DNA from: Naegleria gruberi
Lineage: Eukaryota
Strand: one strand, 5' to 3'
DNA: 64,000 nt
NCBI GenBank assembly: GCA_000004985.1
Contig: GG738882.1
The notes beneath the pieces were generated by a model. That model saw only the letters and a list, made by a program, of their open reading frames with translations. It had not been told where the DNA came from and made no database searches. Positions 10,905 to 46,801 of this stretch are shown here, one piece after another; within the stretch, counting starts at the first letter, position 1; every line of letters begins with the position of its first letter. A program made the position numbers and the translations under genes.

Positions 10905-10934
10905 ACATGTATTAAATGATAATTATGATCTCAA

Positions 10935-12662: not shown

Positions 12663-12758
12663 TTTTTTTATGTGAATTTACTAGTTGACCAATTCTTCCT
12701 TTCATAGATGTCTTCTTATTACAATAATACAATCAATTTATATACAAAATTTGTACAA

Positions 12759-18664: not shown

Positions 18665-18914
18665 TTTTTTATTTTATTTTTTAATTAAATGTCTATTTTT
18701 AAGTGGAAGAATTTTTCCAGATTATTTTGGAAGCAATCATTTCAAATGAAAATAATTTGACAGTTTTGAATTAGAATTGGAAAACATGAATAACTTTTAC
18801 AATAATCTCTAAACTTTTAAATATGAGATATTTTATAAACGTCTTTTAAGAGATGAATAATAAACTATTTAAACTTGTAGATTGTAATAAGTTTCCAACA
18901 AGCTATTAGAAAAA

Positions 18915-19154
18915 ATGTTAGAAAGTGAAAACAAAGAATGCAAAGCGACAAAGCTTCTCAAGTCTTTGGGTTATTCCTCCCCAAAGAAATTAACTGATAG
19001 AGGCGAAAGAAACACCATAAAAATAACTCTCTTTGAGGCTGAAATTCTTAAAGACCTCAATTCCAAAGAGAAAGTTGTAATTCGAATGGTTGAAAATCTC
19101 GATCCAGAAGTACTAGTAGAGTTCGAAAAGGAATATGAAGCTGCTAAAATATAA
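18915..19154 (+). CDS. Possible 5' exon or remnant: degenerate protein-kinase N-lobe-like 79-aa ORF upstream of the TPR gene
   Basis: Start context gaaaaaATG. LLKSLGYSSPKKL resembles a glycine-loop. IKITLFEAEILKDLN..VVIRMVEN...LVEFEKEYEA is ordered like subdomains II-V (VAIK, alphaC, hinge). It ends in a TAA, and I could not define any splice to the downstream exons. Confidence 0.3.
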   Translation: MLESENKECKATKLLKSLGYSSPKKLTDRGERNTIKITLFEAEILKDLNSKEKVVIRMVENLDPEVLVEFEKEYEAAKI

Positions 19155-19329
19155 ATATAAAGATCAGATCCGTTGGAAGACATGTCTCTTCACTGGATGT
19201 CTCATTTTGCAAGACTAGTTGTTCTAAATCACTGAAATATTTTGGCATTTCAAAAATCAAGTATTTTTCATAAGGTATTACCTTGTTGATTTTTACAATA
19301 TTTGGATGATTAATATCTTTTAATTCAAG

Positions 19330-20819
19330 TTACTTCTCCTCCTGAATTATATAGTGAAACATATGATGTTTGGGAGTTGGGAGCTATTATTTATCAAATG
19401 ATAACTGGTGATTTAACAACCACGTTTCGTCTATTGCAACCTCACCAATTAAGAATGCATTTATATGGAACTGATGAAGAGAATCAAGTTGTAACAGATG
19501 GTTTGTATCAGAAAAGATTGAGGAATAGCTATATGGTCCCATACTTGTGGTCCTGTTTTCAGAATCATGCAAAGAGGATTCCTTCTGTTGCAATTATGGA
19601 GGAAATACTTGCTCAATTTTACTTTTATGTTTCGAATACAAAGAAGATTTTGACAAAGGAAAGAAAGGAAAAACCAAAGGAATTTTTCGTGTTGAACTTT
19701 TTCCAACACTTAGCAACAAACGAGGACAAGTTTGAAGAAATTCTCAAAATGGAATCTAAAGACATGAATAATACAGAGCTATACATTAAGAATGTGTTCA
19801 ACACCATGTTTGGTAATAAGGGAGTTTTCAATGTAAAAGAAGGAGAATCCAGTAATGAGTTGAAGAAATATTCTGTGTACTTTAACAAATTTCAAGGGTT
19901 TTATATGTTATTCAATGAGAAGTTTGACACGGCAAAGACTATCTTCCAAAACGTGTTGAATATTCATGCACATGATTTCACAGCATTTAATAATAAGGCC
20001 TTGGTTGATATGGCTTTTTCCAAGTTGGATGCAAACGGGGAATCAAAGAAATATTTGTCAGATGCCAAATCAGGTTTGATGCAAGCTATCAACAACGATC
20101 CTTTTTATGTTAGTGCACTAGTCAATCTTGCCAATATTTATGAATTCGAAGGAGAAACTCATAAAGCGACAGAAAATTACGACAAGGCTTGTAAATATTC
20201 CAGAATAGATCGTCAGAAATTCAATTCCCATCTTAACAGGGCTATTTTCAAAGCGCAGCAATGTTCATTTGATGAAGCACATAGTGATATCAATGAACTA
20301 TTGGCCATATTTACTCAATCTCCAATCATTCATGCCACCAAACAATTAATTAAGTGGATGCAATTGAGAAGTATTCCAACTTCCGCATCTGATTTTGTCA
20401 AGTTGGAAAATGAAATTTTGGAAGAATTTATGCATTTAGAGAAAGTTAAATACCTTCAAAATAATATTCCTTTCCAATTATATAAGGTGCTTTTCTATTT
20501 CCACAAACAGATACTCAAGAAGGATTCTCTCAAGCTATTGAAAGATATATTCCCTAATAAGGTTGAACCAAAAGTTCTATTCTGTTCCACCATTGTAAAT
20601 AGATTCTCTCTGCAATACTTTGAAAATGGAGAAATTCAAACCATTCCTCTTTTCAGAAATGAAATTTTGGATCTACTCAATGAATTGGAATTGTGTCCTC
20701 TTGAAAAAAGACCTGAATTTTCAGTTAATGATTTAGTTCAACTTTCGAGAGGTGATTATCCTTCCCTCACTCTCAAAATCAAAAATCTTACTAATCTTCT
20801 GTTAGGTATCAATTATTGA
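19330..20819 (+). CDS. TPR-repeat protein whose 5' part encodes protein-kinase C-lobe remnants (APE, subdomain IX); the upstream exon structure is unresolved
   Basis: Just upstream of the ORF at 19377, the in-frame translation reads TSPPELYSETYDVWELGAIIYQMITG (APE motif and subdomain IX). Further upstream, in another frame, 19169..19260 encodes HVSSLDVSFCKTSCSKSLKYFGISKIK (HRD-like and DFG-like). The rest, from 19400 to 20819, is TPR-like (...ALVNLANIYEFEGETHKATENYDKA...). Confidence 0.5.
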
Positions 20820-26051: not shown

Positions 26052-28433
26052 ATGCTAGATAGAGAACAACTTGTTTTCAATGTTGATGTTGCTTTTATTG
26101 TGCAGAGTTTTCTGAATGATTCGGATCGAAGAAATTGTGAACAGGTTTCTATTAATTTTCATCGTGCTTGTAATACTTTGGAGAGATTGGAGTTTAGGGA
26201 CCGATTGCAAAATGTTGAACTGAATTTGATCAGAGAGAAATTTGATAAATCATCAATTGCCTCGTCTCCAAAAAGAGTTTTTTCATCAGCAGAAGAAGTT
26301 TTCAATGAAGATATTGAAATGGAAATTGAAGCTTTTGAGAGAAAGCATATCAAGATTCCATTTCATTTGAAAGAGTATTTGAGAATGTCAGTTCATTTAG
26401 ATCCCTATTTAATTTTGGACATTCTGAAGGAATATGTATTTATGCATCCATTGACAGTTTTGTGTCCTTTGAGCGATTGGATTGTCATTAGGGAAGGGGA
26501 AGAATATTTGATTGGGGAGTTTTCTAATTCAAGTGGAAGAGAAAGTTTCATATTTACTTTGAATCAAAAGCAAAATGGAAAATGCTCAATATTCATGACC
26601 ATTACAAAAAATAACAATTTTGGATATGATCAGATTATTTCTTACACCACCAAAAAACGAGTTGAGATTGGTACATTGAAGAGATGGTTCAATAATTATG
26701 GATTTGGATGGTTTGTGAATAGGAACATCTTTCACTACTCTTTCCATAACTCCTTACAAAGAAATCATTTGGATTTGTTCCAAATTTCCAGGAATACCAC
26801 ATCAAGTTTCAACTCTCAACACATCTACAACTTGATCAAAAATTACAAATTTGTCTTTCCAGGTGCGCTTATGGAGAAATATAGCATCGACTTGTTGAGA
26901 GAAGGTCTAATAACTTTGAAACAACTAAAGGAAAATCTTAGAAAAGATCCAAGAATAATCGATATGGCAGTGAGATGCAACGGATTGAATTTGGAGTTTG
27001 TTGGAAAGGAATACCACAGAAATGAGGAAATGGTTCGAAAGGCTATCTCACAAAATGGATTGGCCTTAAAGTTTGCATCCAAGTCTGTACGAATGAATAA
27101 GGATATTGTGGAGATGGCATATAGACAAAACAAATATGCACTTAAATATTCATTGCTATCACCTAAGGAGGATTCAAAAACAATTTCAGATAGATTCCTG
27201 AAATACTTTTCCTTCAATCAAGATCCTAACTGTGAAATAGAAACTTTATTCCCCAACAATGACTATCTTTTGAGATGTATCTATGGATTTGGATTGGAAT
27301 ATTTTTCTCAATATCAAGTTGATATGATCAAAAGATGTCAGAGAGAGGACAACACTGCTCAAAATATTCTATTCCAAGCACCTTCTGTCGGTAAAACATT
27401 GGCTTCATTAATTGTAGCTTTGGAACGTATACAAAAGTTTAAATCTATATTGGGAAGTGGAATTCACTGCTTGATTCTATGCCCTAATAGAGAACTTGTT
27501 ATCAAAGTTGCCAGATTATTTAGCAGCTTATTAATGTGGAATGATATTAATATCATAACGGCCCATGGAGGTCACATTGAAAAGTTATATTTTTATAATT
27601 ATGAAACGTACATGCCATGTACTCCAATGGAAGTTGATTTCAGTAGAAAAACTGAGACATCCCCCAACCCTAGTATTCTTATTGGAACACCAGGTAGATT
27701 AGCACTTGATGATTTAAGAAGTGGAATGTTTGAACTAAACAAAGTCCATACAATAATATATGAGGAAGCTGATACCTTACTGAGCGGAGAATACGATTCA
27801 CTTACACATATTATGAGAGAAATTGAAGAGTACAATCCAAATTGTAAACTAATGAATATCGTATTGTGTCAAACTCTCACAGAAAGAATGTACTTTAAGA
27901 TGAACACTACATTCAATCAAAATCTGGAATATTTCTATAAGGAGGAAAAGTTTGCATTTTTGAAACCACTATCACTATTGAGGGGTTTTATAGACCATGA
28001 AATTGTTTCAGTAGAAGACTTGAGTGATACTGAGGTCCACAATCTCAAGTTAGATCTCTTAAAAAAGAATGGGGATGAGATTCCATTACTTGTTGCGTTT
28101 GGAAATAGAAGATCCATTGAAAGGTATATTGATGGAAATCAATCCATATTAATTTCAATACTACACTCTGACATGGAGCAACGGGATAGAGAGCTAGTAT
28201 GGAAGGAAGCTAACGAATTGACGTGTCAAGTGTTGTCCACAACAGATATCAACAGTAACGCCATGTTGCTTACAAGAGAAATCCATACAGTGTTTCAATT
28301 TGATTTTCCATCCTCAGAAGAAATATTCATCAAAAGAATTAGATATGCCCTTTTTAGAGAAAACAAGATGAAAGTAATAACATTTGTAAACTCTAAAAAA
28401 CAAGAGAGGAGAATCCTCAAGTGGCTTCGATAA
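26052..28433 (+). CDS. DUF4116-repeat protein fused to a degenerate DEAD-box-like helicase core
   Basis: Residues about 300-380 contain tandem 'NGLNLEFVGKEYHRNEEMVRKAISQNGLALKFASKSVRMNKDIVEMAYRQNKYALKY' repeats, which are DUF4116-like. The C-terminal half has APSVGKTLA (motif I-like), PNRELV (PTRELA-like), TPGRL, and EEAD in place of DEAD. The N-terminus is F-box-like. Confidence 0.5.
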   Translation: MLDREQLVFNVDVAFIVQSFLNDSDRRNCEQVSINFHRACNTLERLEFRDRLQNVELNLIREKFDKSSIASSPKRVFSSAEEVFNEDIEMEIEAFERKHIKIPFHLKEYLRMSVHLDPYLILDILKEYVFMHPLTVLCPLSDWIVIREGEEYLIGEFSNSSGRESFIFTLNQKQNGKCSIFMTITKNNNFGYDQIISYTTKKRVEIGTLKRWFNNYGFGWFVNRNIFHYSFHNSLQRNHLDLFQISRNTTSSFNSQHIYNLIKNYKFVFPGALMEKYSIDLLREGLITLKQLKENLRKDPRIIDMAVRCNGLNLEFVGKEYHRNEEMVRKAISQNGLALKFASKSVRMNKDIVEMAYRQNKYALKYSLLSPKEDSKTISDRFLKYFSFNQDPNCEIETLFPNNDYLLRCIYGFGLEYFSQYQVDMIKRCQREDNTAQNILFQAPSVGKTLASLIVALERIQKFKSILGSGIHCLILCPNRELVIKVARLFSSLLMWNDINIITAHGGHIEKLYFYNYETYMPCTPMEVDFSRKTETSPNPSILIGTPGRLALDDLRSGMFELNKVHTIIYEEADTLLSGEYDSLTHIMREIEEYNPNCKLMNIVLCQTLTERMYFKMNTTFNQNLEYFYKEEKFAFLKPLSLLRGFIDHEIVSVEDLSDTEVHNLKLDLLKKNGDEIPLLVAFGNRRSIERYIDGNQSILISILHSDMEQRDRELVWKEANELTCQVLSTTDINSNAMLLTREIHTVFQFDFPSSEEIFIKRIRYALFRENKMKVITFVNSKKQERRILKWLR

Positions 28434-30063: not shown

Positions 30064-32805
30064 ATGAATACAGCTGCAGGAAGTGTCGTATTGGATAATA
30101 ATTCCATCACAGGAGGAATACCTGCAGGAAGTAATTATGAAAATGCTTCATCTCATCATGGAGGAGCATTAACAACAACAACAGATGAACCAGTACTAAA
30201 TGAAACTCATCATCACACCAATAACAATCATCGGAAGAGTCAGAGTTTTGGAGGAACACCAATTACAATAGTGCCACCAACCATTCTGACTAAACCTAGC
30301 AATAAGAGGGATATTACAACAACTCCTGTTGATGGTCAGGAATTAGACGAATTAGACGATGATAATACTGTTTCAGGTGTTGCACCTGGTGCAGACACTA
30401 GCAAACATGCCTATTGTACTCCTAGAAGAGCTATTGTGAATTGTCAAAACTTGGAAGTAATTTCAGAAAAACTAAAGAATCGTAAATTGAGAATTTGTGT
30501 ATATATTAAGGAAAGAGTTTATAAGAGAAGAAAGACATTGAAATCCTCAATTATAGATGTACCAACTTTGAAGAATCAGGCAAATATAGCTGCCGATCAA
30601 TCACTACAAGTGCCACTGAATAACATTTCCTTCAAACTGAAATATTCACATCACTTTAAAAAGAAGATTGACATTTTGAGAATTTCTCTACAATCAGCCA
30701 AGAAAAAGGGTGATTCTTTTAAAACTATTTCAATAGTTTCTATTAATTTATTACACGTTTTGCAGAGACCTTTTGATGAAACTGTTTCCTTCCTCATCAA
30801 AAAGAAAAAGAAGAAGCAAGGAAAAGAGGAAGGAGGTGAAAACAGTCCCAATCAAAATAATTTAAACAATACCCCAAATCATACACTCTTCAATACTAAT
30901 AGTGCCATTTTACATTACTTGTCAAGTGACGATGAAGATGAAGAAAAAGAAAGATATCACAACCACCAAACACATCAAACTTCTCAAAATCTAGATCCTG
31001 TTGCTAATCTAAAGGTTTCTATTCAAACTTTGCCAATATCATTGACAGAGGAAAGAAAAAAGAAAAAGAAATTCCCATTCTTGGGAAAGAAGGAAAGCAC
31101 AAATCCAAATGGTATTGTGCCAGTTATGGAATCGTATGAATATGATTTTACAGATGATGATGATGAAACAGATGATGATAGTGATATTGAGTATGAGTAT
31201 GCAACTGGTTTACAACCAGGCACTGATATTCCAGCATCACCAATTAATAATCCAATTTCTTCTCCAATGGCCGATAAATCAAGTATACTGAAAGAGGATA
31301 AAACTCTAAAAGCAGTGATTGGAATCAAAGACAATATTATGAAAAAGTGGAAATCATTCAAAAAGAAAGGACATCATAATGACTCTGATCATGAACCAAC
31401 ATCACCCAGAGGTGCAGCTGCAAGCTCTGAAAACCCAACACAAATTACCATCAAAATTGATAGAATTCCAATACAAGAACAACTCAAGGAGCTTTTATCC
31501 AACAAGACAATTGTAAAGAAAATTATATTAATTAATGGCAGTTTTAGAAGAGGACAAAGGATTTGGAGCTTTTTGAAACGAACTGGTGGATTATATTCAA
31601 AAGATATTTTATGTACATATTCATGTGAAGATGTAGCTTTGGCTATTAACAAGATATTTGAAAGCAATGCAGAGAGAAGGTATGTCAGTGACCAAGAAAA
31701 TAATGAAACAAAAATTGTTATTCTTGGTAACGATGCCTATGTAAATGATGTTTTAAGAGCATGTCTTACATTGACAACAGATGAAAAGGTTTGGAATCAA
31801 ATTCTCTTCTACCTGGTTCCAATACCTTCTAAGAAAGGAGAGGAGGTTCTCCACCGATCAAGGAATGAAGTTTCTAATTACCTGTATGCTAAATGCACCA
31901 AATATGCCCAACTTTTCTCAACAGATGACTGGAGAAGAGCTCTCTGCTATTCAGTTGATGTAGAGGATTATGTAGAACATGTTTTATTTGAGTATTTGGA
32001 GAATGCTAGTCGTTTTGTTACGATAGAAATTTCACAAGTAATTTTAATGAGCGATTTGTCGACCCCAAACGCCTATCTTTATCCTCACACCAGTCGAGTA
32101 ATTGATTCAGAGACAGCACCATCTTCTCCATCTGAATTGATTCTCAACCAACAGTGTATTGTACCATTACTAAATAATATTCACATCATGAATGAACACC
32201 ATGAACAAAAAAAGAAGAATATTCTCCTAAAACTAGTTCAAAATCTCAATAAGGAAGATGAAAAGGATCCAAAAGAAAAATCCCACAAGAAGGAGATTAT
32301 TGATAAGTCCAACAATCCACCTTCAGCTGCTCAAGTTTTATCTACAAGTCCCCAAATTTCTAATTTACAAAAGAGATTGAGTGTGGAAAATGATGAAGAT
32401 TCATCAGATGAAGGAGAGGATGGTAAACTTGAAAAAGTTCCATCTCTGGAAGTTAAAATTGACTATTGGGATGCTAGTCTCGAAGATAAAAGCAAATGCA
32501 CAACCAAACATTCCTTCTCTCACGTCGAAATATTCAAGTTGCCATCCACAGACCTTCCTGATGAATTCCAACCAAAACCAGAAACCTTTACTCTTTCCAC
32601 CAGCAAACCTAAAAAGAAAAAGAAACAACCAAACGAGGAAATTGAAAGAAAATGCAATCTTACCAAAGTAATTTGTAAAGTAGAAAAAAAGAAGCAAACA
32701 GCAAGAGCAGTCATTGATGGTGTAGAATGGTCGAATGTTAAGGTTATTTCAGTAACTCCCAAATGGGTTAACAATTTGAGTTTCAAAGTAGCATCCTTCA
32801 AATAA
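30064..32805 (+). CDS. PACS: Phosphofurin acidic cluster sorting protein (PACS)-like
   Basis: Conserved C-terminal blocks: ILINGSFRRGQRIWSFLK (PACS ILVNTSDWQGQFLSDVLQ), KIVILGNDAYVNDVLRACLTLTTDEKVWNQILFYLVPIPS ([42 protein letters not shown]), and AVIDGVEWSNVKV (VLIDGVECSDVKF). Acidic cluster DDDDETDDDSDIEYEY. 913 aa, uninterrupted. Confidence 0.65.
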   Translation: MNTAAGSVVLDNNSITGGIPAGSNYENASSHHGGALTTTTDEPVLNETHHHTNNNHRKSQSFGGTPITIVPPTILTKPSNKRDITTTPVDGQELDELDDDNTVSGVAPGADTSKHAYCTPRRAIVNCQNLEVISEKLKNRKLRICVYIKERVYKRRKTLKSSIIDVPTLKNQANIAADQSLQVPLNNISFKLKYSHHFKKKIDILRISLQSAKKKGDSFKTISIVSINLLHVLQRPFDETVSFLIKKKKKKQGKEEGGENSPNQNNLNNTPNHTLFNTNSAILHYLSSDDEDEEKERYHNHQTHQTSQNLDPVANLKVSIQTLPISLTEERKKKKKFPFLGKKESTNPNGIVPVMESYEYDFTDDDDETDDDSDIEYEYATGLQPGTDIPASPINNPISSPMADKSSILKEDKTLKAVIGIKDNIMKKWKSFKKKGHHNDSDHEPTSPRGAAASSENPTQITIKIDRIPIQEQLKELLSNKTIVKKIILINGSFRRGQRIWSFLKRTGGLYSKDILCTYSCEDVALAINKIFESNAERRYVSDQENNETKIVILGNDAYVNDVLRACLTLTTDEKVWNQILFYLVPIPSKKGEEVLHRSRNEVSNYLYAKCTKYAQLFSTDDWRRALCYSVDVEDYVEHVLFEYLENASRFVTIEISQVILMSDLSTPNAYLYPHTSRVIDSETAPSSPSELILNQQCIVPLLNNIHIMNEHHEQKKKNILLKLVQNLNKEDEKDPKEKSHKKEIIDKSNNPPSAAQVLSTSPQISNLQKRLSVENDEDSSDEGEDGKLEKVPSLEVKIDYWDASLEDKSKCTTKHSFSHVEIFKLPSTDLPDEFQPKPETFTLSTSKPKKKKKQPNEEIERKCNLTKVICKVEKKKQTARAVIDGVEWSNVKVISVTPKWVNNLSFKVASFK

Positions 32806-32966: not shown

Positions 32967-34428
32967 ATGCAAAACAACTCAACAATGGTAGATAAACGAT
33001 TATCGTTTTCATCATCACCATCATTGAATTCAATAATACCAATAGGTAACGCCAATAATCACCACCATCATCGAAATAATCACTACTTTTTTGGGAGTAA
33101 TTTACAAGGACAATTGGGATCATGTGCCAATCATCGATTATCAAATAATAATGGATCGAATTATTCGAGTTTACTTGTTGATGATTTGATTAAAACATTA
33201 CCAATTACACAAATTGCTTGCGGATCACACCATACAGTAATATTGACAGAGAGGAATGATTTGTATGTAAGCGGAAGAAATGTCAATCATCAATTGGGAA
33301 TACCAAATGATATTGATGAGTCGATTGAAGTTGTTTCACCAAATTCTGGACAATCCATAGTTTCAAATTCATATATTCGAGATTTTAAAAGAGTATCCTT
33401 CGGAAAGAAGATTAAAAAGATTGCTTGTTCGAGTGATCAGACATTTCTAGTCACAAGGGATGATGAAATTTATTATTGTGGAGGAAGTCAACCTGTAAGG
33501 GATCCGTTTGCTGTAAATACTTGTCAAGAAATTTCAATGATTAATCCTTTGAAATCTTGGAATGATCTTAATCAGAAAGTTGACATTTTTGTAACGAGTT
33601 GCTTTACTAGCTGTTTTGTACTTGTATCGAGAGAAGGTAATATTTATGTGAGTGGATCACAGAATGCATTCAATTCTGGAATGTTGGGTGTTGGAAATGT
33701 TGATTATACAAGAGGTAAATTCCATCGTGTGACACTTCCTAACACTCAATCAAAACCAAAAATTGTTGCCCTTGGATCCCAACATTCAATTATTGTAACT
33801 GAGAAAAATGAGTTTTATTGGTATGTGTATTGGAATATATTGAATATGTATTTAATCATCTCATTATAGTTCTGGATCTAATATGAATTATCAATTGGGT
33901 TTTCAGACATCATGTGGAAAACAAATCCATTTTGTAAAGCCAAAGAATATTCCTTTCAATGGAAAGAGAATTGAACAAGTGGCTTGTGGAGCTGATTTTA
34001 CATTTGTATTAACGGAGGGAAATCTTTTGTTTGGATGTGGAAATGGTGTGAGTGGATCGCTTGGAATTGGATCTAGTGAGAGAATTAACTTTTTCACCAG
34101 AATTTCCATTCCATTCAAAATCAAACACTTATCATGTGGTGAGGATTTTACAATTATCATGGCTACCAATGGTATGTGTTTCAGGAGTGGAAATAACAAA
34201 CTTGGCCAAATTGGATTGAAAAACACACCAACCCATCCTGTGGAAAAGGTTTGCAAATTTGAACCACTCTATGTGGACGATGGAATTGAGGACATAGTAT
34301 GCGGTGTAGCCCATACTTTCCTCTACAAGTCATCAGAATCTTGCTTTAATAGATATCTCCCTTACTATTCAGATATTAATCCACTCAATTGCCAACAAGC
34401 CCCATTTTGGGATGTAATTTTATGCTAA
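32967..34428 (+). CDS. RCC1-repeat protein; exons 32967..33820 and 33870..34428, intron 33821..33869 (49 nt, GTATGT...ATTATAG)
   Basis: Repeated motifs GSNLQGQLG / ACGSHHTVIL / SGRNVNHQLG / ACGADFTFVLTEGNLLFGCGNGVSGSLG. The phase-2 splice joins the two ORFs (...EFYC|SGSNMNYQLGF...). Confidence 0.65.
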
Positions 34429-36635: not shown

Positions 36636-38744
36636 TTAATCCTTTTGTTGTAATAGCATATGAGTCAACTTTGATAAATGGTGAGAATCAAGATTCAAGA
36701 AAACGTTTCCTTCTGATGCTCTTTTATGCTCATTGTATCCTTTTGGAAAGAAAAAGTCTTCTGCTGTTGGAGGAACATCTAACAGGACTGAATGCAATTT
36801 TTGATTTCTGACTCCTTCCAAGTGACACGTTCCTAATGGCTTAATAGTACACACTTCTTCCAAGATGGTGGCTGTATTACCATCACAAACAATGGACCCT
36901 TTCAAATGGTCATTGGCATAGTTACAGAATGAAATGGAACGCTTTATCAACTCTCCAAATAGTCCATATTCTCTTCGAAAGTCAGATCCAACACTTCCTC
37001 TAAAACTGTATCCAGTTGCATATCCAATTCCTGTAAATTGTAATTGTTCTCTTTCCACAATTTCTCTCATACATTGAATCACTAGCGATGGATTTTCCTC
37101 AGCAATATGTCTCTCGAAGGTATACACAAACATGACACAATCCTTCTCGTAGAACAAGTCATGGAACGTGGCATTATATTGCTCTATAATTTCTTGTACT
37201 GAGGTTACAATCTTATTCTTAACGGTTAAATCATGTTCTGGAATGCTCGACCCAAATAGAGATGCCTTAATTGAATGTGTACACACCACCAATTCCACAA
37301 CTGAATTCATTGACTCGATTGTTTTAGTTTCAATTCCATAAAGTAAATTCTTATTCAAAAAGAGAAGAATTGCCTGTGAGAAGGAACAATGAAATGTTAT
37401 CGAAGCAAGTGGATGATGATCAATATCTTTAGTAACGTGAGTTACTAAAAAGAGATTCCCTGGTTCCTCACTCGCCACTAAGGATTGTTTACACTTGTTA
37501 TAGGCATCCTTGGTAATGAAGACTAATCCTTCCTTACAATCCTTCAGACGTTTCCTTGTTTGATAAACAACTTGGCCTCCAAACATTCTCATCCAATGAT
37601 TTCCAAAACCACCCAAATGATACGATAAGGAATCTCCAACACCTATCAAACATTTAATTTCCAAAGGTGCACTTTCACTAATACACTTGTAGGTCTTTAA
37701 ATTGGCCAATGATTGAATCCTGAATGCACATTGAATGGCAGAAAGAATTGAATCAGTGAATGAGCGATCCACTCTAGGTGAAAAGAATTGACACACCAAA
37801 AGATCAGCCTCAAATTTCTCAATATCACCCCCCATGTCATGAATGATCGCAATTAACGTAGTGTACATGTAATAAATATATCTGGAAATTTCCGCAACAT
37901 CACAATTTGTTGAACAATCATAGAAAGAGTCCACAACTTTTGAAAATCCCTTCATTTCAATCACCAGGATGCAAGTCTCATTCCCAAATTCACTCAATGG
38001 AAGTACTTGCTTGATCCTATCCTCTTCCTGTTGTGCTGCAGAGACTACTGGTTTTGCAGCTTTTGTCTTATTATTCCTATTACCACCTGAACGGTTGGTT
38101 CTCATCGTGTTGGTTGTTGATGTGGAGAGTCTTCTCTTGAAGATTGAAGCTATTTTCCCATTATTATGTGCATGGGAATCTTGATAGTGAGAAGAGTAGT
38201 CGGTATTTACAGAGACAAAGGCAGACCACTTGCTTTCATTATCTACAAGACAACTTCCATCGTTGTGTGAAAAACTTTGTGGAAGAGGAGTGGCTAGCTT
38301 TTTCTTATATTGCTTCCCCTCACCTCCATAATAAATATATCTCAAACAGAAGAGCAAATGTTGTGGGAGGTAAGAACAACACAATTCCAAATTCACTTCC
38401 TCTTGAGATTTTCCTTGTGGAGTTTGGGGAAAACCAATCCAGCTCACACGAAGGCCAGGAATTCTAAATGATGATACCTTCTTTGCCCTCAGATCCAAAG
38501 TTTCAATTTCAGATGACACAGAATTCTCTCGTGATTGCTTCTTTCCGAATTGAAACCTGGCAGAATTTGCAAGAGAATTATCATTCTGATGATATACATT
38601 TTCCACACCTCCCCTTTGAGAACCGACCATGCCATTACCATTGGTGTTTAAAGTTGTGCTGGTGGTATTGCTCTGATGACGACGATAAGAGCTTGGCTCA
38701 CTGTGTAGTAGTACCTCAAAGTGAGAACTACATCCAGCTCCCAT
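36636..38744 (-). CDS. Soluble-type tandem class III adenylyl/guanylyl-cyclase-homology-domain protein with N-terminal myristoylation/palmitoylation motif (MGAGCSS)
   Basis: Domain 1: CILVIEMKGFSKVV...GGDIEKFEADLLVCQF...IKCLIGVGDSLSYHLGG. Domain 2: ASITFHCSFSQ...YEKDCVMFVY...GIGYATGYSFRGSVGS...GSIVCDG. The order matches the paired CHD arrangement of sAC-like enzymes. An N-terminal Gly2/Cys5 context precedes a long Ser/Asn-rich linker. Confidence 0.5.
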   Translation of the reverse strand: MGAGCSSHFEVLLHSEPSSYRRHQSNTTSTTLNTNGNGMVGSQRGGVENVYHQNDNSLANSARFQFGKKQSRENSVSSEIETLDLRAKKVSSFRIPGLRVSWIGFPQTPQGKSQEEVNLELCCSYLPQHLLFCLRYIYYGGEGKQYKKKLATPLPQSFSHNDGSCLVDNESKWSAFVSVNTDYSSHYQDSHAHNNGKIASIFKRRLSTSTTNTMRTNRSGGNRNNKTKAAKPVVSAAQQEEDRIKQVLPLSEFGNETCILVIEMKGFSKVVDSFYDCSTNCDVAEISRYIYYMYTTLIAIIHDMGGDIEKFEADLLVCQFFSPRVDRSFTDSILSAIQCAFRIQSLANLKTYKCISESAPLEIKCLIGVGDSLSYHLGGFGNHWMRMFGGQVVYQTRKRLKDCKEGLVFITKDAYNKCKQSLVASEEPGNLFLVTHVTKDIDHHPLASITFHCSFSQAILLFLNKNLLYGIETKTIESMNSVVELVVCTHSIKASLFGSSIPEHDLTVKNKIVTSVQEIIEQYNATFHDLFYEKDCVMFVYTFERHIAEENPSLVIQCMREIVEREQLQFTGIGYATGYSFRGSVGSDFRREYGLFGELIKRSISFCNYANDHLKGSIVCDGNTATILEEVCTIKPLGTCHLEGVRNQKLHSVLLDVPPTAEDFFFPKGYNEHKRASEGNVFLNLDSHHLSKLTHMLLQQKD

Positions 38745-42067: not shown

Positions 42068-44428
42068 ATGAAGCTTTATGCTCTTGGTGAAGGATGTCAC
42101 ATACTCACCTTTAAAAATACAACTGTGATGCTTGATTGTGCATTGGATTGGGGTAATCAGACTAGCAGTTGGGATTTTGTAAAGCGGAATGTTATTCAAA
42201 ATGATCCATCATCAGGAACAAAATCAATGCTAAATTTATTGAATAGAACAAACCGATTGAATGTAAACTCTCTTTCATCATCATCAACTAAAATTACACA
42301 ACAAGATTTACAACCTCCATCAATAGTTTTTAAAGCTCCGAATTTTCATAAAATTGATGCCTCACAAATAGATTTAATCCTCATCACAAATCCACATAAT
42401 TTATTAGCTCTACCATTCTTATATCAGCATTTAAAGGAAATTGCTAAGGATCAAAATTCAGACAAGGTCAAAATGCCTACTATTTATGCCACCGAACCAA
42501 CAGTACAACTCGGAAAGAAAATGATGCAAGAATTAATTGCCTATGTGAAACAAAGTGAACATTTGGAATTATCTAGAGCAAGTCAAATATTCAAACCGGA
42601 GGAAAATATTTTCATGAACAAATTATCACCACTCTTATCCGAAAAGTTTATTTATTCTAATGATGATGTATTAAGAGTTGTAGAGTCAATGAAGAGTGTC
42701 AGTTATCAGGAAAGAGTTGCAGTATTTGGTGGAGTATTCGAAATATCTGCACTCAGTAGTGGTTACAGTCTAGGATATTGTAATTGGTTAATTAGAACAG
42801 AATATGAGAAAATATTTTATGTTAGTCATAGTAGTAGATCTGGAGTTCAAGTACGTCATCCTGCAGAAATGGATCTCTCAACTGTGACATCTATCGTGCA
42901 GGCCCCTGGATCATCATCTGGAACTGTAGCAACAATTCAATCAGGAGTCAGTGGATCTATGGTAAATACTGTCATGATTGTATCAAATATTTGTCCAAAG
43001 AGTGACAGAAACTTACAATATTTTGAGCAAGTATATCAACAACTTGCCTCAACACTAGGACCAATATCTAAGAGTCAATTATATGCTATCGATACTGAAA
43101 ATATCAAAATTGTAAAACCATTATGTCATTACTATCCAGAAGCAACTTTAAATGATATTTGTAGAATAATAGGAAAAACTATTGAATCAGGAGGAGATGT
43201 TCTCATTCCTTGCCATACTACTGGGCTTATTTATGATTTGATTGACTTTTTATCTACATTCTTCAACTCTGTACATTTGGGTAATACTCTCATTTATTTA
43301 GTATCACCAGTGGCAGATCATGCTATTCAATATGCTAACATCAGCGCTGAATGGTTGTGTGACTCAAAAATGGATAAAACTCTGACAGCAGAAAGTCCAT
43401 TTGCCCACGTCAATTTGCTTCAAAACAAATCCTTAGTAGTTTTTGATAGTGTAAACTCTAAATTTATGAGTTATTATCAGAGTCACAGAGTTTCCAATCC
43501 GTGTGTTATTTTTGCTGGTCATCCTTCTTTGAGAATGGGAGATATTCTCCAACTCATTCCAATCTTCCAAAGAAATAGCAACAATGCCATGATAATGATT
43601 GAACCAGAATATTCCTTCCTCGATACAATTGAACCATTTTTACCTCCACCTGGACAGCAATCAATGAAGTTTATTCATTGCCCTATTGATCTTCGTTTGA
43701 AAAATTCAGATGTTGTACACATGGTAAAACAAGTAGCTCCTCAACATTTGATTTTGACCAATGTTGCTGTAGACATTCCACCTTATAACCTGAAGAATTG
43801 TTCACCAAGTACAGAATTACAAATTGCTTTGAATAGCTACTCTGCTTCAACTGCCAGTACCCTCTTGAACAGTTTGGATATGCGAACAATTTCTAAGTTT
43901 GTTTCAGAAAAGATTCATACAATTTCCACTCCTGGCTCAAGTATAAGATATGGCATTGATGGTGATGATATTCTCTCAATCAAGAGACATCACATGAAGA
44001 GGAAATACGAAATGGCAACTCTCTCACACAACCTTGCTCAAACCATTTATCCAAAGGTAGTTAAGGGTGTTTACGTCTCACGTGTCTCTGCTGAATTAAC
44101 ATCTAAGGATGGAAAACATATATTGGATGTGACATCAGAAGATGATTCACAATCTGAAGAATCATCCTCCAAGAAGAGAAAACACGATAAGGATCTAATG
44201 GTATTTGGTGACATTAGTGTGGAGAAAATTGTTAAACATTTACAAGTTGAAGGATTTGATAATATCACAGTACTGACATCTCCAACAGATTATGGTACCT
44301 ACACAATCGTCATTCCACAACTTGGTAAAATTATCTTTAACGCAGAAGACACCACCATTGAGACACAGGACGAGACCTCACGTCAGTACCTCAAAGAGGT
44401 CCTCATGCAAAATTTGTACATGTTGTAA
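42068..44428 (+). CDS. INTS9: Integrator complex subunit 9 (beta-CASP / metallo-beta-lactamase fold, catalytically degenerate)
   Basis: MKLYALGEGCHILTFKNTTVMLDCALD (INTS9 [31 protein letters not shown]). IDLILITNPHNLLALPFLYQ...IYATEPTVQLGKKMMQEL ([20 protein letters not shown]...VYATEPTVQIGRLLMEEL). VAVFGGVFEISALSSGYSLGYCNWLIRTEYEKIFYVSHSS ([39 protein letters not shown]). The HxHxDH motif is degenerate, as in INTS9. Confidence 0.85.
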   Translation: MKLYALGEGCHILTFKNTTVMLDCALDWGNQTSSWDFVKRNVIQNDPSSGTKSMLNLLNRTNRLNVNSLSSSSTKITQQDLQPPSIVFKAPNFHKIDASQIDLILITNPHNLLALPFLYQHLKEIAKDQNSDKVKMPTIYATEPTVQLGKKMMQELIAYVKQSEHLELSRASQIFKPEENIFMNKLSPLLSEKFIYSNDDVLRVVESMKSVSYQERVAVFGGVFEISALSSGYSLGYCNWLIRTEYEKIFYVSHSSRSGVQVRHPAEMDLSTVTSIVQAPGSSSGTVATIQSGVSGSMVNTVMIVSNICPKSDRNLQYFEQVYQQLASTLGPISKSQLYAIDTENIKIVKPLCHYYPEATLNDICRIIGKTIESGGDVLIPCHTTGLIYDLIDFLSTFFNSVHLGNTLIYLVSPVADHAIQYANISAEWLCDSKMDKTLTAESPFAHVNLLQNKSLVVFDSVNSKFMSYYQSHRVSNPCVIFAGHPSLRMGDILQLIPIFQRNSNNAMIMIEPEYSFLDTIEPFLPPPGQQSMKFIHCPIDLRLKNSDVVHMVKQVAPQHLILTNVAVDIPPYNLKNCSPSTELQIALNSYSASTASTLLNSLDMRTISKFVSEKIHTISTPGSSIRYGIDGDDILSIKRHHMKRKYEMATLSHNLAQTIYPKVVKGVYVSRVSAELTSKDGKHILDVTSEDDSQSEESSSKKRKHDKDLMVFGDISVEKIVKHLQVEGFDNITVLTSPTDYGTYTIVIPQLGKIIFNAEDTTIETQDETSRQYLKEVLMQNLYML

Positions 44429-44611: not shown

Positions 44612-46801
44612 ATGTCCTTCACCGCTTACTTTAGCTATCAGGCAAATTTACGGCCAGCCTGGAAGACCTACTACATTTCATACCCAGAACTTAAGAATGC
44701 ACTCCATCACATTAGAGAGGAACTCACACAAATGAAACAAGAACAAAAGGAGCATCGGAAACGAAGATTGCAACAACAACAAGAAGAGGAGAGGAAAACC
44801 TCAGAAAATTCTGCCCTATTGTCCTATCAGCAACAGGCTGTAACAAGTGGAGATAGTAATAATAATAATAATACAACAATAGTATCATCGTCATCATCAT
44901 CACTGTTGCCTGCTAATAGCAGTGGTGCATTGAATCCAATTGAAAACTTTGGATTATCACTGCGGAGAGTCTATTCAGAACAAGATTCATCAATTCAGGA
45001 GAATGATGGAGAGAAAATAGGAGGAACCATTGTTGATGATTACTTTTTCAGATTGGAAATTGGAGAAAGTTTGAATATGCATATTGAAAATTTCAAAAAC
45101 ATGTTTAAAAAGGACGTAGAGACTGTTTTTAAAAAGTACAATTTTGAATTGAAGAAAGTCAATGAAATAACATTGAGAACACAAAAGGAATTGTCAGAAG
45201 CAAGAATGAAACCATTTTTCAATAGTGAAACTGGTCCAGTACTGAAAGAGAAATTTGTTGAAATTTACAGAGAGTTGGAATTTCTCTACAGCTTTTTGCA
45301 TGCCAACAGAATTGCTAGTAATAATTTATTGACTAAATTTGAATTTTGTGGTGAACATTCAAGAGATTTAAAACATTGGTATGAAGATTTACCAAATGCT
45401 GACTTTAGCACCAATCAATTGAAACAAAGTATGGAAAATGTCGAACAGATATTTGCCAAATATTTCACATCCTCAGATCAGAGTAGAGCCTTGTCATTCC
45501 TTCGTGAACCTTCCACTCACCACACCCACGGTGACACTTTCAAATTGGCTCTGGCTATTGGTTCCATTGTGCCATTGTTTGTCCTTCTGGTTGCTGTGTG
45601 GTTCTTTAAGGAGCCATCAATTAATGATATTCCAGGTTTCTTTGATGTACTTCCAATTTTCCGTTCTATCATGTTATACATTCTCTATGGTTGGCTCTAT
45701 GGATTGAATTTGTTTGTTTGGGAAAGATACAAGGTCAACTTTGCCTATCTTTTTGAATTTGATCCAGTGAATCACTTGAAAGCTATCAAAATTTGGAAGA
45801 CAACTAGTGTTTTGACAGTTTTTTGGTTCTTTTTCTTTTTCCTTTACATGATAACAGTGAAAGGTTATTTAACAATATTAGATGCTTCATGGTATCCATT
45901 AATTATGAGCTTGATGATGGTCTTTATTGCCATTTTACCAATGCACTTTGTTCACTTGAGTGCAAGATATACTCTCCTTAAGGTCTTGGGTAAATTGTTG
46001 ATCACACCATTTGGTCACATTAGATTCAGAGAATTCTTTGTTGCTGATGTTTTAACAAGTATGGTTATTCCAATAACTGATACAGCTTACATGTTGTGCT
46101 TTTATTTCTCTTGGAGTAGTGGTGAAAATCAATGTCATGAATTTAACAAATTCTTGGGTCCTTGCCTTACTTTCCTTCCTTTCTTGTGGAGAATGTTACA
46201 GTGTTGCAGAAGATTTTACGATGACAGATCACAAAAGAGTCAGCTTCTCAATGCTCTCAAATACGTTGCTGCTCTCTCTGTGATTTTATTCAACACCTTG
46301 CACGTCAATTTGGAAGATAACGATGCTTGGGGACCTTTCAGATATATTTGGATTATTCTGACACCAGTCAGTACTGCCTATGCTTTCACTTGGGATATTC
46401 TGATGGATTGGGGCTTATTCAAATTCAAACAAGTTAAGGAAGAGGAAAGAGCCAAGACGAAATTGGAAGCAATTAAGAAATTTTTCACCTCACAAACAAT
46501 TATGGGCTACAAATTTGTAATGCGTAGCAGAAGAATTTATGGTAGAAGAAAACTTGTCTATCGTTTGGCAATTGCTTTCAATTTGATTGCTAGATTTGCA
46601 TGGGCTGGTACCATCTCAACTTACTTTAAGCAAAATAAGGAATTTTTAGCCATTCTCTTTGGTAGTGTCGAGTTGATGAGAAGATGTAGTTGGAGTGTCT
46701 TTAGATTGGAATGGGCAGCAATCTCTAATGATGAGGGCTGGCGTAAACATGGAATTGGAGACTTGGCATCTATCTATCTTGGTATTAACACTTCAAAATA
46801 A
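44612..46801 (+). CDS. XPR1: SPX-EXS domain phosphate exporter (XPR1/PHO1/SYG1 family)
   Basis: N-terminal SPX (MSFTAYFSYQANLRPAWKTYYISYPELKNALHHI...), about 8 TM helices, and a C-terminal EXS domain (WDILMDWGL..., RFAWAGTIS..., FRLEWAAISND). Confidence 0.8.
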   Translation: MSFTAYFSYQANLRPAWKTYYISYPELKNALHHIREELTQMKQEQKEHRKRRLQQQQEEERKTSENSALLSYQQQAVTSGDSNNNNNTTIVSSSSSSLLPANSSGALNPIENFGLSLRRVYSEQDSSIQENDGEKIGGTIVDDYFFRLEIGESLNMHIENFKNMFKKDVETVFKKYNFELKKVNEITLRTQKELSEARMKPFFNSETGPVLKEKFVEIYRELEFLYSFLHANRIASNNLLTKFEFCGEHSRDLKHWYEDLPNADFSTNQLKQSMENVEQIFAKYFTSSDQSRALSFLREPSTHHTHGDTFKLALAIGSIVPLFVLLVAVWFFKEPSINDIPGFFDVLPIFRSIMLYILYGWLYGLNLFVWERYKVNFAYLFEFDPVNHLKAIKIWKTTSVLTVFWFFFFFLYMITVKGYLTILDASWYPLIMSLMMVFIAILPMHFVHLSARYTLLKVLGKLLITPFGHIRFREFFVADVLTSMVIPITDTAYMLCFYFSWSSGENQCHEFNKFLGPCLTFLPFLWRMLQCCRRFYDDRSQKSQLLNALKYVAALSVILFNTLHVNLEDNDAWGPFRYIWIILTPVSTAYAFTWDILMDWGLFKFKQVKEEERAKTKLEAIKKFFTSQTIMGYKFVMRSRRIYGRRKLVYRLAIAFNLIARFAWAGTISTYFKQNKEFLAILFGSVELMRRCSWSVFRLEWAAISNDEGWRKHGIGDLASIYLGINTSK

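What the first reader, a model, noticed from the sequence alone, without database searches (positions are those of the whole stretch)
36636..38744. N-myristoylation-motif, sAC-like tandem cyclase-homology protein
MGAGCSS (Gly2, Cys5) predicts a dual-lipidated membrane-associated protein. Two class III CHDs follow in sAC-like order. Domain 1 keeps the D of the GD(A)Y metal site but has E at the first metal position. Domain 2 is more degenerate. It is a candidate bicarbonate- or Ca-regulated cAMP source, anchored by lipid and not by transmembrane helices.
Basis: inference. Interest (0 to 1): 0.5.

Follow-up and report, generated by a model that had tools for sequence, protein, structure and literature searches.

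The report
Lipid-anchored, catalytically degenerate sAC-like pseudo-cyclase
This Naegleria gruberi gene encodes a relative of soluble adenylyl cyclase with a conserved fatty-acid membrane-anchor signal, but it has lost the residues needed to make cAMP, so it is more likely a regulatory "dead enzyme" than a cAMP source.

Summary
The window carries an intact 702-aa ORF at 36636-38744 (-) that starts MGAGCSS. It is identical to the N. gruberi "predicted protein" XP_002674790.1 (NAEGRDRAFT_70102), which has no Pfam or NCBIfam hit.

**Anchor.** M-G-[AS]-x-C-S is shared by all six N-termini of the Naegleria sAC-like clade. None of 256 other family members examined has it. A lipid anchor is therefore well supported, though not demonstrated.

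**Catalysis.** The "cAMP source" reading is not supported.
- The C1 side keeps E263 (Asp in 107/107 homologues), D314, K310, K364 and R397.
- The C2 side has lost every catalytic determinant: K334→D529, T405→G594, N412→K601 and R416→S605.
- R416 is Arg in 105/107 homologues. The ortholog has Ala there.

**Relatives and selection.**
- The sAC-type STAND/TPR tail is absent.
- N. gruberi has two full-length, canonical, equally lipidated paralogs.
- The gene is under purifying selection.

Verdict: a lipid-tethered sAC-family pseudo-cyclase, and a new variant of a known kind, of moderate interest.

The parts
36636..38744 (-). Whole single-exon gene, 702 codons plus stop (NAEGRDRAFT_70102 / XP_002674790.1)
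   Evidence: ORF listing. 100% identity to the N. gruberi protein. An intact ortholog ORF exists in L001. Purifying selection.
38724..38744 (-). MGAGCSS: predicted N-myristoylation (Gly2) and S-palmitoylation (Cys5) signal, an SH4-like dual-acylation motif
   Evidence: Fits the PROSITE-type myristoylation rule. M-G-[AS]-x-C-S occurs in 6/6 Naegleria-clade N-termini and in 0/256 other family members. An in-frame stop lies 9 nt upstream. The modification itself is inferred.
38421..38489 (-). Conserved N-extension motif [KR]K..SF[KR][IVL]P..R[VL].[FWL].GF (aa 86-108, invariant Ser92); function unknown, possibly a basophilic-kinase phosphosite
   Evidence: Alignments A1 and A2. dN = 0.23 over aa 85-150, against 0.7-0.76 in the flanking segments. 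The phosphosite idea is inference only.
38325..38405 (-). sAC-family N-terminal helix region (aa 114-140, 'SYLPQHLL')
   Evidence: Aligns with the '[AS][YF]VP..L' motif at the extreme N-terminus of bacterial and eukaryotic sAC-like proteins. Predicted helical even in the poor first model.
38010..38297 (-). Fast-evolving low-complexity linker (aa 150-245) inserted between the N-helix and C1
   Evidence: 31% identity and dN = 0.76 against the ortholog. Absent or short in P0003, P0156 and P0157.
37455..37997 (-). C1-like cyclase-homology domain (aa 250-430). Carries E263 (codon 37956-37958), K310 (37815-37817), A313-D314 (37803-37808), K364 (37653-37655) and R397 (37554-37556)
37305..37454 (-). 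C1-C2 linker (aa 431-480)
   Evidence: AF2 secondary structure and the alignment to sAC.
36780..37304 (-). C2-like cyclase-homology domain (aa 481-655), catalytically degenerate: D529 (37158-37160), G594 (36963-36965), K601 (36942-36944), S605 (36930-36932)
   Evidence: HMMER alignment to sAC C2. Gap-free alignment to canonical paralog P0003 across 'VG..R.E[FY]..xG....N...R'. MSA tables.
36636..36779 (-). Poorly conserved C-terminal tail (aa 656-702) and stop codon; no STAND/TPR module follows
   Evidence: pLDDT below 50 and 24% identity to the ortholog. The AspRS start codon lies 362 bp downstream. tblastn of P0003 and P0004 finds no STAND sequence in the window.

Best explanation
The gene encodes a Naegleria-lineage paralog of the soluble adenylyl cyclase (ADCY10-type) family that has become a membrane-tethered pseudo-cyclase.

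**Shown.**
- One chain carries a C1-like and a C2-like class III cyclase-homology domain, which fold as an sAC-type intramolecular pseudo-heterodimer.
- These domains are preceded by the family's N-terminal helix and by a Naegleria-specific N-terminal extension.
- The sAC-type C-terminal STAND NTPase/TPR region is absent.
- The C2-side residues that recognise the base and stabilise the transition state are all replaced, and the first metal Asp is Glu.
- The protein is nevertheless under purifying selection.

**Inferred.**
- Gly2 is N-myristoylated and Cys5 S-palmitoylated. This would hold the protein on the cytoplasmic face of a membrane, the plasma or flagellar membrane by analogy with dual-acylated proteins of other Discoba.
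- The protein makes little or no cAMP.
- It retains a ligand pocket on the still-conserved C1 side (E263, D314, GFS loop, K364, K310, R397). That pocket could bind metal-nucleotide, pyrophosphate or a small anion such as bicarbonate.
- It acts as a regulatory, sensor or scaffold partner in the same membrane compartment as its two catalytically intact, identically lipidated N. gruberi paralogs (P0156 'FM146' and P0157).
For: **Fold and homology.**

**Family context.**
- The closest relatives are N. lovaniensis P0003 (E = 6e-78; canonical residues; Pfam Guanylate_cyc) and N. lovaniensis P0004 (degenerate).
- N. gruberi has two full-length canonical paralogs that start MGSACS and MGASCS.
- An NJ tree places the focal protein with P0002 and P0004 in a degenerate subclade (200/200 bootstraps) inside a Naegleria clade (195/200).

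**Catalytic residues, two independent MSAs.**
- D47 is Asp in 107/107 homologues; the focal protein has E263.
- R416 is Arg in 105/107; focal S605, ortholog A608, P0004 Q490.
- N412 is Asn in 103/107; focal K601.
- T405 is T/A/S in 98/107; Gly in all three degenerate members.
- K334 is Asp in the focal protein and its ortholog.
- C1-side positions are identical in the two orthologs (E, K, G, F, S, K, D, K, R). The C2 transition-state positions differ between them (K/N and S/A), which suggests constraint is kept on C1 and relaxed at the catalytic C2 positions.

**Selection.** dS is saturated. dN is 0.23-0.32 in the N-motif and both CHDs, against 0.7-1.0 in the linker, N-terminus and tail.

**Anchor.** The motif is conserved in 6/6 clade members and 0/256 others, and there is no TM helix. 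In kinetoplastids, dual acylation targets truncated reporter fusions (N-terminal fragments of PPEF and SMP-1) to the flagellum (PMC3491706).

Against:
- Glu can in principle ligate Mg/Mn, and D314, K364 and the phosphate loop are kept, so weak or unusual catalysis is not excluded.
- Mutating the transition-state Arg or Asn in mammalian cyclases lowers kcat but does not abolish it (own knowledge).
- The degenerate clade has only three known members. One of them, N. lovaniensis P0057/P0004, is split across two reading frames, so inferences about conservation rest on very few sequences.
- Acylation was assessed by rule and by conservation only, not with an NMT predictor or an experiment.
- The proposed partnership with the canonical paralogs and the flagellar or plasma-membrane location are analogies, not observations.
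- The AF2 model was built from an MSA of sAC-like proteins, so its resemblance to sAC is not fully independent of the sequence evidence.
Confidence: 0.6

Rival explanations
1. One reading: an active, lipid-anchored adenylyl cyclase regulated by bicarbonate or Ca2+, i.e. a real cAMP source.
For: - sAC fold and domain order.
- Second metal Asp (D314), a Glu at the first metal site, the GF[ST] phosphate loop and the K144 equivalent (K364) are kept.
- Both bicarbonate-site residues of human sAC align with K310 and R397, although only 6/107 homologues have Arg at the R176 position (residue roles from PMC12867704 Table 1 and PMC12250328).
- A C1-C2-only architecture is known to be highly active in the truncated mammalian sAC isoform (own knowledge).
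Against: - All four C2 determinants are missing in N. gruberi (D529, G594, K601, S605).
- The transition-state Arg is missing in all three members of the subclade (S, A, Q), although it is Arg in 105/107 homologues.
- K601 cannot be a conserved substitute, because the ortholog has N604 with A608, which leaves no basic residue there.
- The first metal Asp is invariant in 107/107 homologues but is Glu here.
- Canonical paralogs exist in the same genome to supply cAMP.
Confidence: 0.12
2. An enzyme with a different chemistry. The palm-like CHD scaffold still binds metal-nucleotide through E263, D314, K364 and the GFS loop, and carries out another reaction (for example NTP hydrolysis or another nucleotidyl transfer), or uses a non-canonical substrate.
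For: - The C1-side metal and phosphate residues are strictly conserved between the two orthologs, while the C2 transition-state positions drift.
Against: - No positive evidence for any alternative catalytic residue set.
- Only two orthologs are available to define conservation.
- The Asp-to-Glu change at an invariant metal site argues for altered or lost metal geometry.
Confidence: 0.15
3. A decaying relic: a truncated, non-functional duplicate on its way to becoming a pseudogene.
For: - Loss of the STAND/TPR tail and of the catalytic residues.
- No Pfam hit.
- The N. lovaniensis member of the subclade is split over two reading frames.
- Naegleria has a very large cyclase repertoire, at least 81 (PMC9928731), so redundancy is plausible.
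Against: - Intact ORFs of about 700 aa survive in two lineages whose synonymous sites are saturated (pS about 0.7).
- dN is 3- to 4-fold lower in the N-motif and both CHDs than in the linkers.
- The N-terminal acylation motif and long pocket-lining stretches are identical between the orthologs.
- The AF2 model is confident.
Confidence: 0.04

Closest known systems
Human soluble adenylyl cyclase (ADCY10, sAC) catalytic core, as in the truncated C1-C2 isoform
   Same: - N-terminal helix motif.
- Equivalents of D99, K95, K144 and R176 are kept.
- No TM helices.
   Different: - About 14-16% identity.
- D47→E, K334→D, T405→G, N412→K and R416→S, so the active site is not competent by sequence.
- A 110-aa N-terminal extension carries an acylation motif.
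- A roughly 95-aa low-complexity insert lies before C1.
- The gene itself lacks the STAND/TPR region, whereas the mammalian short form arises by splicing or proteolysis.
Naegleria canonical sAC-like paralogs: N. gruberi P0156 (NAEGRDRAFT_66608, 'FM146') and P0157 ('guanylyl cyclase'), and N. lovaniensis P0003
   Same: - Same clade (195/200 bootstraps).
- Same MG[AS]xCS N-terminus, same [KR]K..SF..P motif and same 'S[YF]LPQHL' helix.
   Different: - These proteins are 1455-1605 aa with a long C-terminal region.
- They hit Pfam PF00211.
- They keep D/D, T, N and R at the catalytic positions.
- The focal protein is 702 aa, has no Pfam hit and is degenerate.
N. lovaniensis C9374_002893/002894 (P0004 plus P0057)
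   Same: - Same degenerate subclade (200/200).
- Shared derived features: 'LVCQF', 'R[RH][ED][FY]GL[FY]G', Gly at T405, and loss of R416.
- MGSSCSS N-terminus on P0057.
   Different: - Still carries a P-loop (AAA_16/NACHT-like) region after C2.
- Even more degenerate on the C1 side (D47→K, D99→E).
- Has a roughly 70-aa insert in C1.
- Annotated as two genes in different reading frames, and lies in tandem with canonical P0003.
Bacterial and eukaryotic CHD-AAA_16-TPR proteins (the 'class 3 adenylate cyclase/predicted ATPase' family, about 1350 aa)
   Same: Homologous tandem CHD module and N-terminal helix.
   Different: - These proteins keep the canonical catalytic residues.
- They carry the STAND/TPR tail and lack an acylation motif (0/256).
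P. aeruginosa 'class III adenylyl cyclase-like ATP-binding protein' (PDB 6yii)
   Different: - Bacterial, 11% identity and no lipid anchor.
- No direct sequence match in phmmer or hmmsearch.
- Its biochemistry is known to me only from the PDB title and memory.
SH4-type dual-acylated proteins (Src-family kinases, Leishmania HASPB, SMP-1 and PPEF, trypanosome calflagins)
   Same: An N-terminal Met-Gly...Cys motif that is myristoylated and palmitoylated and is sufficient for plasma- or flagellar-membrane targeting (PMC3491706 and PMC5617996).
   Different: Only the short N-terminal signal is analogous, and the proteins are not homologous. Acylation of the Naegleria protein is untested.

Membership tests
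Class III nucleotidyl cyclase catalytic domain (CHD, Pfam PF00211) | Sequence match to the PF00211 profile above its gathering score | tested here: not met
   hmmscan against Pfam-A returns zero families even at E <= 10. The same holds for the ortholog P0002 and for NCBIfam.
Class III nucleotidyl cyclase catalytic domain (CHD, Pfam PF00211) | CHD fold (beta-alpha-beta-beta-alpha-beta palm-like core), twice | tested here: met
   [not shown]
sAC (ADCY10-type) family | C1 and C2 CHDs in tandem on one chain, in that order, with the family's N-terminal helix | tested here: met
   Two HMMER stretches collinear with sAC C1 and C2. 857 profile hits, dominated by N-terminal tandem-CHD proteins. 441-column structural alignment. 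N-helix alignment.
sAC (ADCY10-type) family | C-terminal STAND NTPase (AAA_16) plus TPR-like region in the full-length protein | tested here: not met
   The protein ends 47 aa after C2, and the next gene (AspRS) starts 362 bp downstream. tblastn finds no STAND sequence in the window. The ortholog is also short.
Catalytically competent class III cyclase | Two metal-binding Asp residues (sAC D47, D99) | tested here: inconclusive
   E263 and D314. The first position is Asp in 107/107 homologues, and Glu is conserved in the ortholog. Whether Glu supports metal binding cannot be tested here.
Catalytically competent class III cyclase | Transition-state Asn and Arg on the partner domain (sAC N412, R416) | tested here: not met
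   K601 and S605 in the focal protein, N604 and A608 in the ortholog. Homologues have Asn in 103/107 and Arg in 105/107.
Catalytically competent class III cyclase | Base-specifying pair (Lys plus Asp/Thr for ATP; Glu plus Cys for GTP) | tested here: not met
   D529 (alternative alignments give H528 or A525, never Lys, Gln or Glu) and G594. This is neither the AC nor the GC signature.
Bicarbonate-regulated sAC | Bicarbonate-site Lys95 and Arg176 | tested here: met
   K310 and R397 align with them in two MSAs and are conserved in the ortholog (K315, R400). Only 6/107 homologues have Arg at the R176 position. Residue roles are from PMC12867704 and PMC12250328. Actual bicarbonate binding is not testable here.
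N-myristoylated / dual-acylated (SH4-like) proteins | Met1-Gly2; a small uncharged residue 3; Ser/Thr/small residue at position 6; no Pro at 7 | tested here: met
   MGAGCSS matches G-{EDRKHPFYW}-x-x-[STAGCN]-{P}. The same holds for the five related N-termini. No NMT predictor was available.
N-myristoylated / dual-acylated (SH4-like) proteins | A nearby Cys for S-palmitoylation | tested here: met
   Cys5 is invariant in 6/6 clade N-termini.
N-myristoylated / dual-acylated (SH4-like) proteins | Actual lipid attachment and membrane localisation | not testable with these tools
   Requires metabolic labelling or mass spectrometry, and imaging.

The most novel reading that the evidence does not exclude
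The protein is a lipid-raft or flagellar-membrane-tethered sensor pseudo-cyclase. It has given up catalysis but kept the sAC regulatory pocket: K310 and R397 correspond to the bicarbonate-site Lys95 and Arg176, and D314 is available for the Arg-Asp switch. It would use anion (bicarbonate/pH) or nucleotide binding to control the two catalytically active, identically dual-acylated sAC paralogs of Naegleria, one of which is in the flagellar-motility gene set. More broadly, 'soluble' adenylyl cyclases would be membrane-anchored by lipid in Heterolobosea.
Probability: 0.12. Interest if true: 0.6.

Novelty: new variant of a known kind. Interest (0 to 1): 0.35.

Why it matters
- It assigns a fold and a family to a Naegleria "predicted protein" that standard domain libraries leave blank.
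- It suggests that the whole Naegleria branch of the "soluble" adenylyl cyclase family is held on membranes by an N-terminal myristoyl/palmitoyl signal, a mode of localisation I could not find described for sAC-type cyclases.
- It identifies a conserved, selectively maintained dead paralog. That paralog keeps the C1-side metal, phosphate and bicarbonate-site residues while losing the C2 catalytic set.
- If this pseudo-cyclase regulates the active paralogs, it would be a simple, testable system for how pseudo-enzymes shape cAMP signalling in a free-living relative of the pathogen N. fowleri.
- If it does not, it is one more degenerate member of a very large cyclase repertoire.

Tried and rejected
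- **Domain libraries.** Pfam and NCBIfam scans of the protein found nothing, even at E <= 10.
- **First AlphaFold run.** Run on the two-sequence alignment, it was useless (pLDDT 29). It was replaced by a run on a 51-sequence alignment.
- **Second word-indexed homology search.** With alignment A2 it returned only the two known orthologs, probably because low-complexity words filled the candidate list, so it was wasted.
- **Metagenome scans.** Two scans with patterns from the N-motif and from C1 found no further relatives. The degenerate subclade therefore still has only three members. No N. fowleri ortholog could be looked for directly.
- **Other searches.** The afdb50 fold library was unavailable. 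Literature searches for the gene identifiers, for lipidated sAC in protists and for the 6yii paper found nothing usable.
- **Considered and rejected:**
  - A mis-called start or a missing upstream exon: there is an in-frame stop 9 nt upstream, and the N-terminus is conserved in the ortholog and paralogs.
  - A STAND module hidden downstream.
  - A functional second (pseudo-symmetric) active site: C2 lacks the metal Asp and C1 lacks Asn and Arg.
  - Pseudogene status.
  - Conserved synteny with the N. lovaniensis locus: none apart from the CHD gene itself.
  - A functional element on the opposite strand: only short mechanical ORFs of 71-107 aa.
Full report
**What is there.**

The finding's coordinates are exactly one ORF: 36636-38744 on the minus strand, 702 codons, starting MGAGCSS.
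- An in-frame TAA lies 9 nt upstream of the ATG.
- The window is 32-37% G+C and is packed with typical eukaryotic genes: AspRS, Raptor, SDH flavoprotein, PACS-1, SPX-EXS, and F-box/LRR, ankyrin and RCC1 proteins.
- The protein is 100% identical to the Naegleria gruberi 'predicted protein' XP_002674790.1 / NAEGRDRAFT_70102 / UniProt D2VME2.
- Public annotation gives it no domain. Pfam-A and NCBIfam return nothing even at E <= 10.

**The tandem cyclase-homology reading is correct.**

- phmmer against PDB sequences finds human soluble adenylyl cyclase (ADCY10) at E = 7e-7. It gives two collinear stretches: query 258-426 on sAC C1 and query 513-621 on sAC C2.
- A profile of the protein and its one close ortholog (P0002, 52% identity, from a 3.2-kb ENA metagenome contig) was scored against 1.8 billion representative proteins. 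It finds 857 relatives at E <= 1e-3 and 110 at E <= 1e-10. Almost all are 1.2-1.7-kaa proteins with the tandem CHD module at their N-terminus.
- An AlphaFold model of aa 239-702, built on 51 family members, is confident (mean pLDDT 84.8, pTM 0.84).
- The 24 best Foldseek hits in the PDB are all human sAC (best E = 6e-26, TM 0.74, 441 columns, 14% identity).
- Caveat: the model's MSA consists of sAC-like proteins, so the structural and sequence evidence are not fully independent.

**Family context.**

*Closest relatives.*
- N. lovaniensis P0003 is 1455 aa (E = 6e-78) and hits Pfam Guanylate_cyc. It has canonical motifs (LDVSGFT, GGDVEKFSGDAL, GDKVNLAARL).
- N. lovaniensis P0004 is 1032 aa (E = 2e-54). 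It is degenerate and carries an AAA_16/NACHT-like P-loop after C2.
- N. lovaniensis P0057 is a 188-aa fragment holding only the N-terminal region.

*The N. lovaniensis locus.* The three genes lie in tandem on one contig. P0057 and P0004 are 140 bp apart on the same strand but in different reading frames. They are therefore one gene split by annotation, a frameshift or decay.

*N. gruberi paralogs.* A search seeded with P0003 shows that N. gruberi has two full-length paralogs: P0156 (1566 aa, NAEGRDRAFT_66608, named 'FM146' by UniProt) and P0157 (1605 aa, 'guanylyl cyclase'). The rest of that list consists of bacterial and eukaryotic CHD-AAA_16-TPR proteins.

*Tree.* A neighbour-joining tree of the CHD module groups all Naegleria members (195/200 bootstraps). 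It splits them into a canonical subclade (P0157, P0156, P0003) and a degenerate subclade (focal, P0002, P0004; 200/200).

*Conclusion.* The focal gene is thus the N. gruberi representative of an old, degenerate duplicate of a Naegleria sAC-like gene. It has also lost the C-terminal region:
- The ORF stops 47 aa after C2, and the AspRS start codon is 362 bp downstream.
- No STAND sequence is detectable in the window.
- The ortholog's contig shows the same short form.

**Catalytic residues.**

Residue roles in human sAC were taken from Table 1 of PMC12867704 and from PMC12250328:
- metal ligands D47 and D99
- bicarbonate site K95 and R176
- PPi receptor K144
- base recognition K334 and T405
- N412
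- alpha-phosphate / transition-state R416

Two independent MAFFT L-INS-i alignments (111 and 14 sequences) and the HMMER pairwise alignments agree on the mapping.

| sAC residue | Role | Homologues (of 107) | Focal | Ortholog P0002 | P0004 |
|---|---|---|---|---|---|
| D47 | metal | Asp 107 | E263 | E268 | K83 |
| T52 | GFT loop | Thr 95, Ser 12 | S268 | S273 | H88 |
| K95 | bicarbonate | Lys 89 | K310 | K315 | R191 |
| G98 | precedes D99 | Gly 107 | A313 | G318 | P194 |
| D99 | metal | Asp 107 | D314 | D319 | E195 |
| K144 | PPi | Arg 39, His 38, Lys 29 | K364 | K367 | R246 |
| R176 | bicarbonate | Arg 6 | R397 | R400 | N279 |
| K334 | base | Lys 51, Gln 34, Arg 9, Asn 7 | D529 | D532 | C414 / K415 (the two alignments differ) |
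| T405 | base | T/A/S 98 | G594 | G597 | G479 |
| N412 | ribose / product release | Asn 103 | K601 | N604 | N486 |
| R416 | transition state | Arg 105 | S605 | A608 | Q490 |

- For K334, other alignments give H528 or A525, never Lys, Gln, Arg or Glu.
- The three canonical Naegleria paralogs have D, D, T, N and R at these positions.
- The mirror-image site cannot be catalytic. By manual motif comparison, C2 has Thr at the first metal position, and C1 has Tyr394 and Lys398 where Asn and Arg would be.
- The C1-side pocket residues are identical between the two orthologs, whereas the N412 and R416 positions differ between them (K/N and S/A). That is the pattern expected if binding is still selected but transition-state chemistry is not.

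**The gene is not a pseudogene.**

Against the ortholog, synonymous sites are saturated (pS about 0.7). dN is 0.23 in the N-terminal motif region (aa 85-150), 0.27 in C1 and 0.32 in C2. It is 0.7-1.0 in aa 1-84, in the low-complexity linker (aa 151-245) and in the C-terminal tail.

**The lipid anchor.**

- MGAGCSS satisfies the myristoylation rule G-{EDRKHPFYW}-x-x-[STAGCN]-{P}, with the favoured Ser at position 6 and a Cys at position 5.
- All six N-termini of the Naegleria clade read M-G-[AS]-x-C-S: MGAGCSS, MGAICSS, MGSGCSN, MGSSCSS, MGSACSL and MGASCSC. The next roughly 50 residues are not alignable.
- None of 256 other sAC-like proteins fetched has the motif.
- No segment of the protein reaches transmembrane-helix hydrophobicity.
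- The anchor is therefore a conserved trait of the whole Naegleria sAC-like family, catalytically intact members included. That is the most interesting by-product of this analysis.
- In kinetoplastids, which like Naegleria belong to Discoba, dual acylation targets truncated reporter fusions to the flagellar membrane and places calflagins in flagellar lipid rafts (PMC3491706 and PMC5617996).
- 'FM' in the name of paralog P0156 refers, to my knowledge, to the flagellar-motility gene set of the N. gruberi genome paper. A plasma- or flagellar-membrane location is therefore a reasonable inference, but it is unproven.

**Other anatomy.**

- Between the anchor and C1 lies a conserved motif, [KR]K..SF[KR][IVL]P..R[VL].[FWL].GF (aa 86-108, invariant Ser92). 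Basic residues at -3 and -4 and Phe at +1 make it look like a basophilic-kinase site. This is inference only.
- Next comes 'SYLPQHLL' (aa 114-140), which aligns with the '[AS][YF]VP..L' helix that opens bacterial and other eukaryotic sAC-like proteins.
- A fast-evolving low-complexity insert of about 95 aa follows.

**Most likely mechanism.**

*Shown:* an sAC-fold pseudo-heterodimer with a degenerate active site, no STAND/TPR tail, purifying selection, and a conserved acylation motif shared with active paralogs.

*Inferred:*
- The protein is myristoylated and palmitoylated and sits on the inner face of a membrane.
- It makes little or no cyclic nucleotide.
- It uses the preserved C1-side pocket (E263, D314, GFS, K364, K310, R397) to bind metal-nucleotide, pyrophosphate or an anion.
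- It works as a regulator, sensor or scaffold next to the active paralogs.

I put about 0.6 on this. The alternatives are an active bicarbonate-regulated cyclase (about 0.12), a different chemistry on the same scaffold (about 0.15), and a decaying relic (about 0.04). The remainder is unassigned.

**Comparison and novelty.**

- The protein works like, and is homologous to, the sAC catalytic core.
- It meets the fold and architecture criteria of the sAC family. It fails the criteria for a competent class III cyclase (transition-state Asn and Arg, and the base-specifying pair), and it lacks the family's C-terminal module.
- The nearest functional precedent for a non-catalytic sAC-like module is PDB 6yii.
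- Pseudo-enzymes are common, and Naegleria has at least 81 cyclases (PMC9928731), so a dead paralog is not surprising in itself.
- What is new: the fold assignment for an unannotated protein, the predicted lipid anchoring of an entire 'soluble' cyclase clade, and the asymmetric pattern of retention (C1 and bicarbonate-site residues kept, C2 catalytic residues lost).
- I found no literature on this gene or on acylated sAC-type cyclases in the searchable library.
- Verdict: a new variant of a known kind, interest about 0.35.

Noticed in passing
L002 (N. lovaniensis PYSW02000017.1) 10001-20184: Canonical sAC-like gene P0003 (10001-15136) is followed on the same strand by a 92-aa ORF, then P0057 (16323-16889; MGSSCSS plus the N-motif) and P0004 (17030-20184; degenerate CHDs plus a P-loop). 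P0057 and P0004 are 140 bp apart in different reading frames, so they are one gene split by annotation, a frameshift or an intron, or a decaying copy. The arrangement indicates that the canonical and degenerate lineages arose by tandem duplication.
   Followed up: partly
P0156 (N. gruberi NAEGRDRAFT_66608, 'FM146'), around aa 180-190: The public gene model reads 'FIYDAIICQF', where its ortholog P0003 has 'YIYEFGGDVEKFSGDALICQF'. The beta2-beta3 hairpin carrying K95, G98 and D99 appears to be spliced out, probably through a mis-called intron and not a real deletion.
   Followed up: no
window 32967-33869 (+) and 33883-34428 (+): Two RCC1-repeat ORFs (300 and 181 aa) lie 14 bp apart on the same strand. 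They are probably one RCC1-like gene interrupted by a short intron or a stop codon.
   Followed up: no
window 38421-38489 (-), aa 86-108 of the focal protein: The motif [KR]K..SF[KR][IVL]P..R[VL].[FWL].GF, with an invariant Ser (S92), is conserved across canonical and degenerate Naegleria sAC-like proteins. It looks like a basophilic-kinase phosphorylation site that could couple the anchor region to kinase signalling.
   Followed up: partly
window 26052-28433 (+): A 793-aa ORF combines a DUF4116 repeat with a DEAD/Helicase_C core, an unusual pairing seen only in the Pfam scan.
   Followed up: no
window 12759-16325 (-), 6993-9125 (-), 44612-46801 (+), 30064-32805 (+), 42068-44428 (+): Housekeeping and signalling genes, all as long uninterrupted ORFs: a Raptor (TORC1) homolog, SDH/fumarate reductase flavoprotein, an SPX-EXS (XPR1/PHO1-like) phosphate exporter, a PACS-1-like sorting protein, and a metallo-beta-lactamase/beta-CASP nuclease. 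This fits the intron-poor N. gruberi genome.
   Followed up: no
L001 2475-3221 (-): The ortholog's downstream neighbour is a convergent ORF that is not present in the window. I read it by eye as exonuclease/phosphatase-like (CCR4/nocturnin type) and did not test that. Local synteny around the pseudo-cyclase gene is therefore not conserved between the two species.
   Followed up: partly
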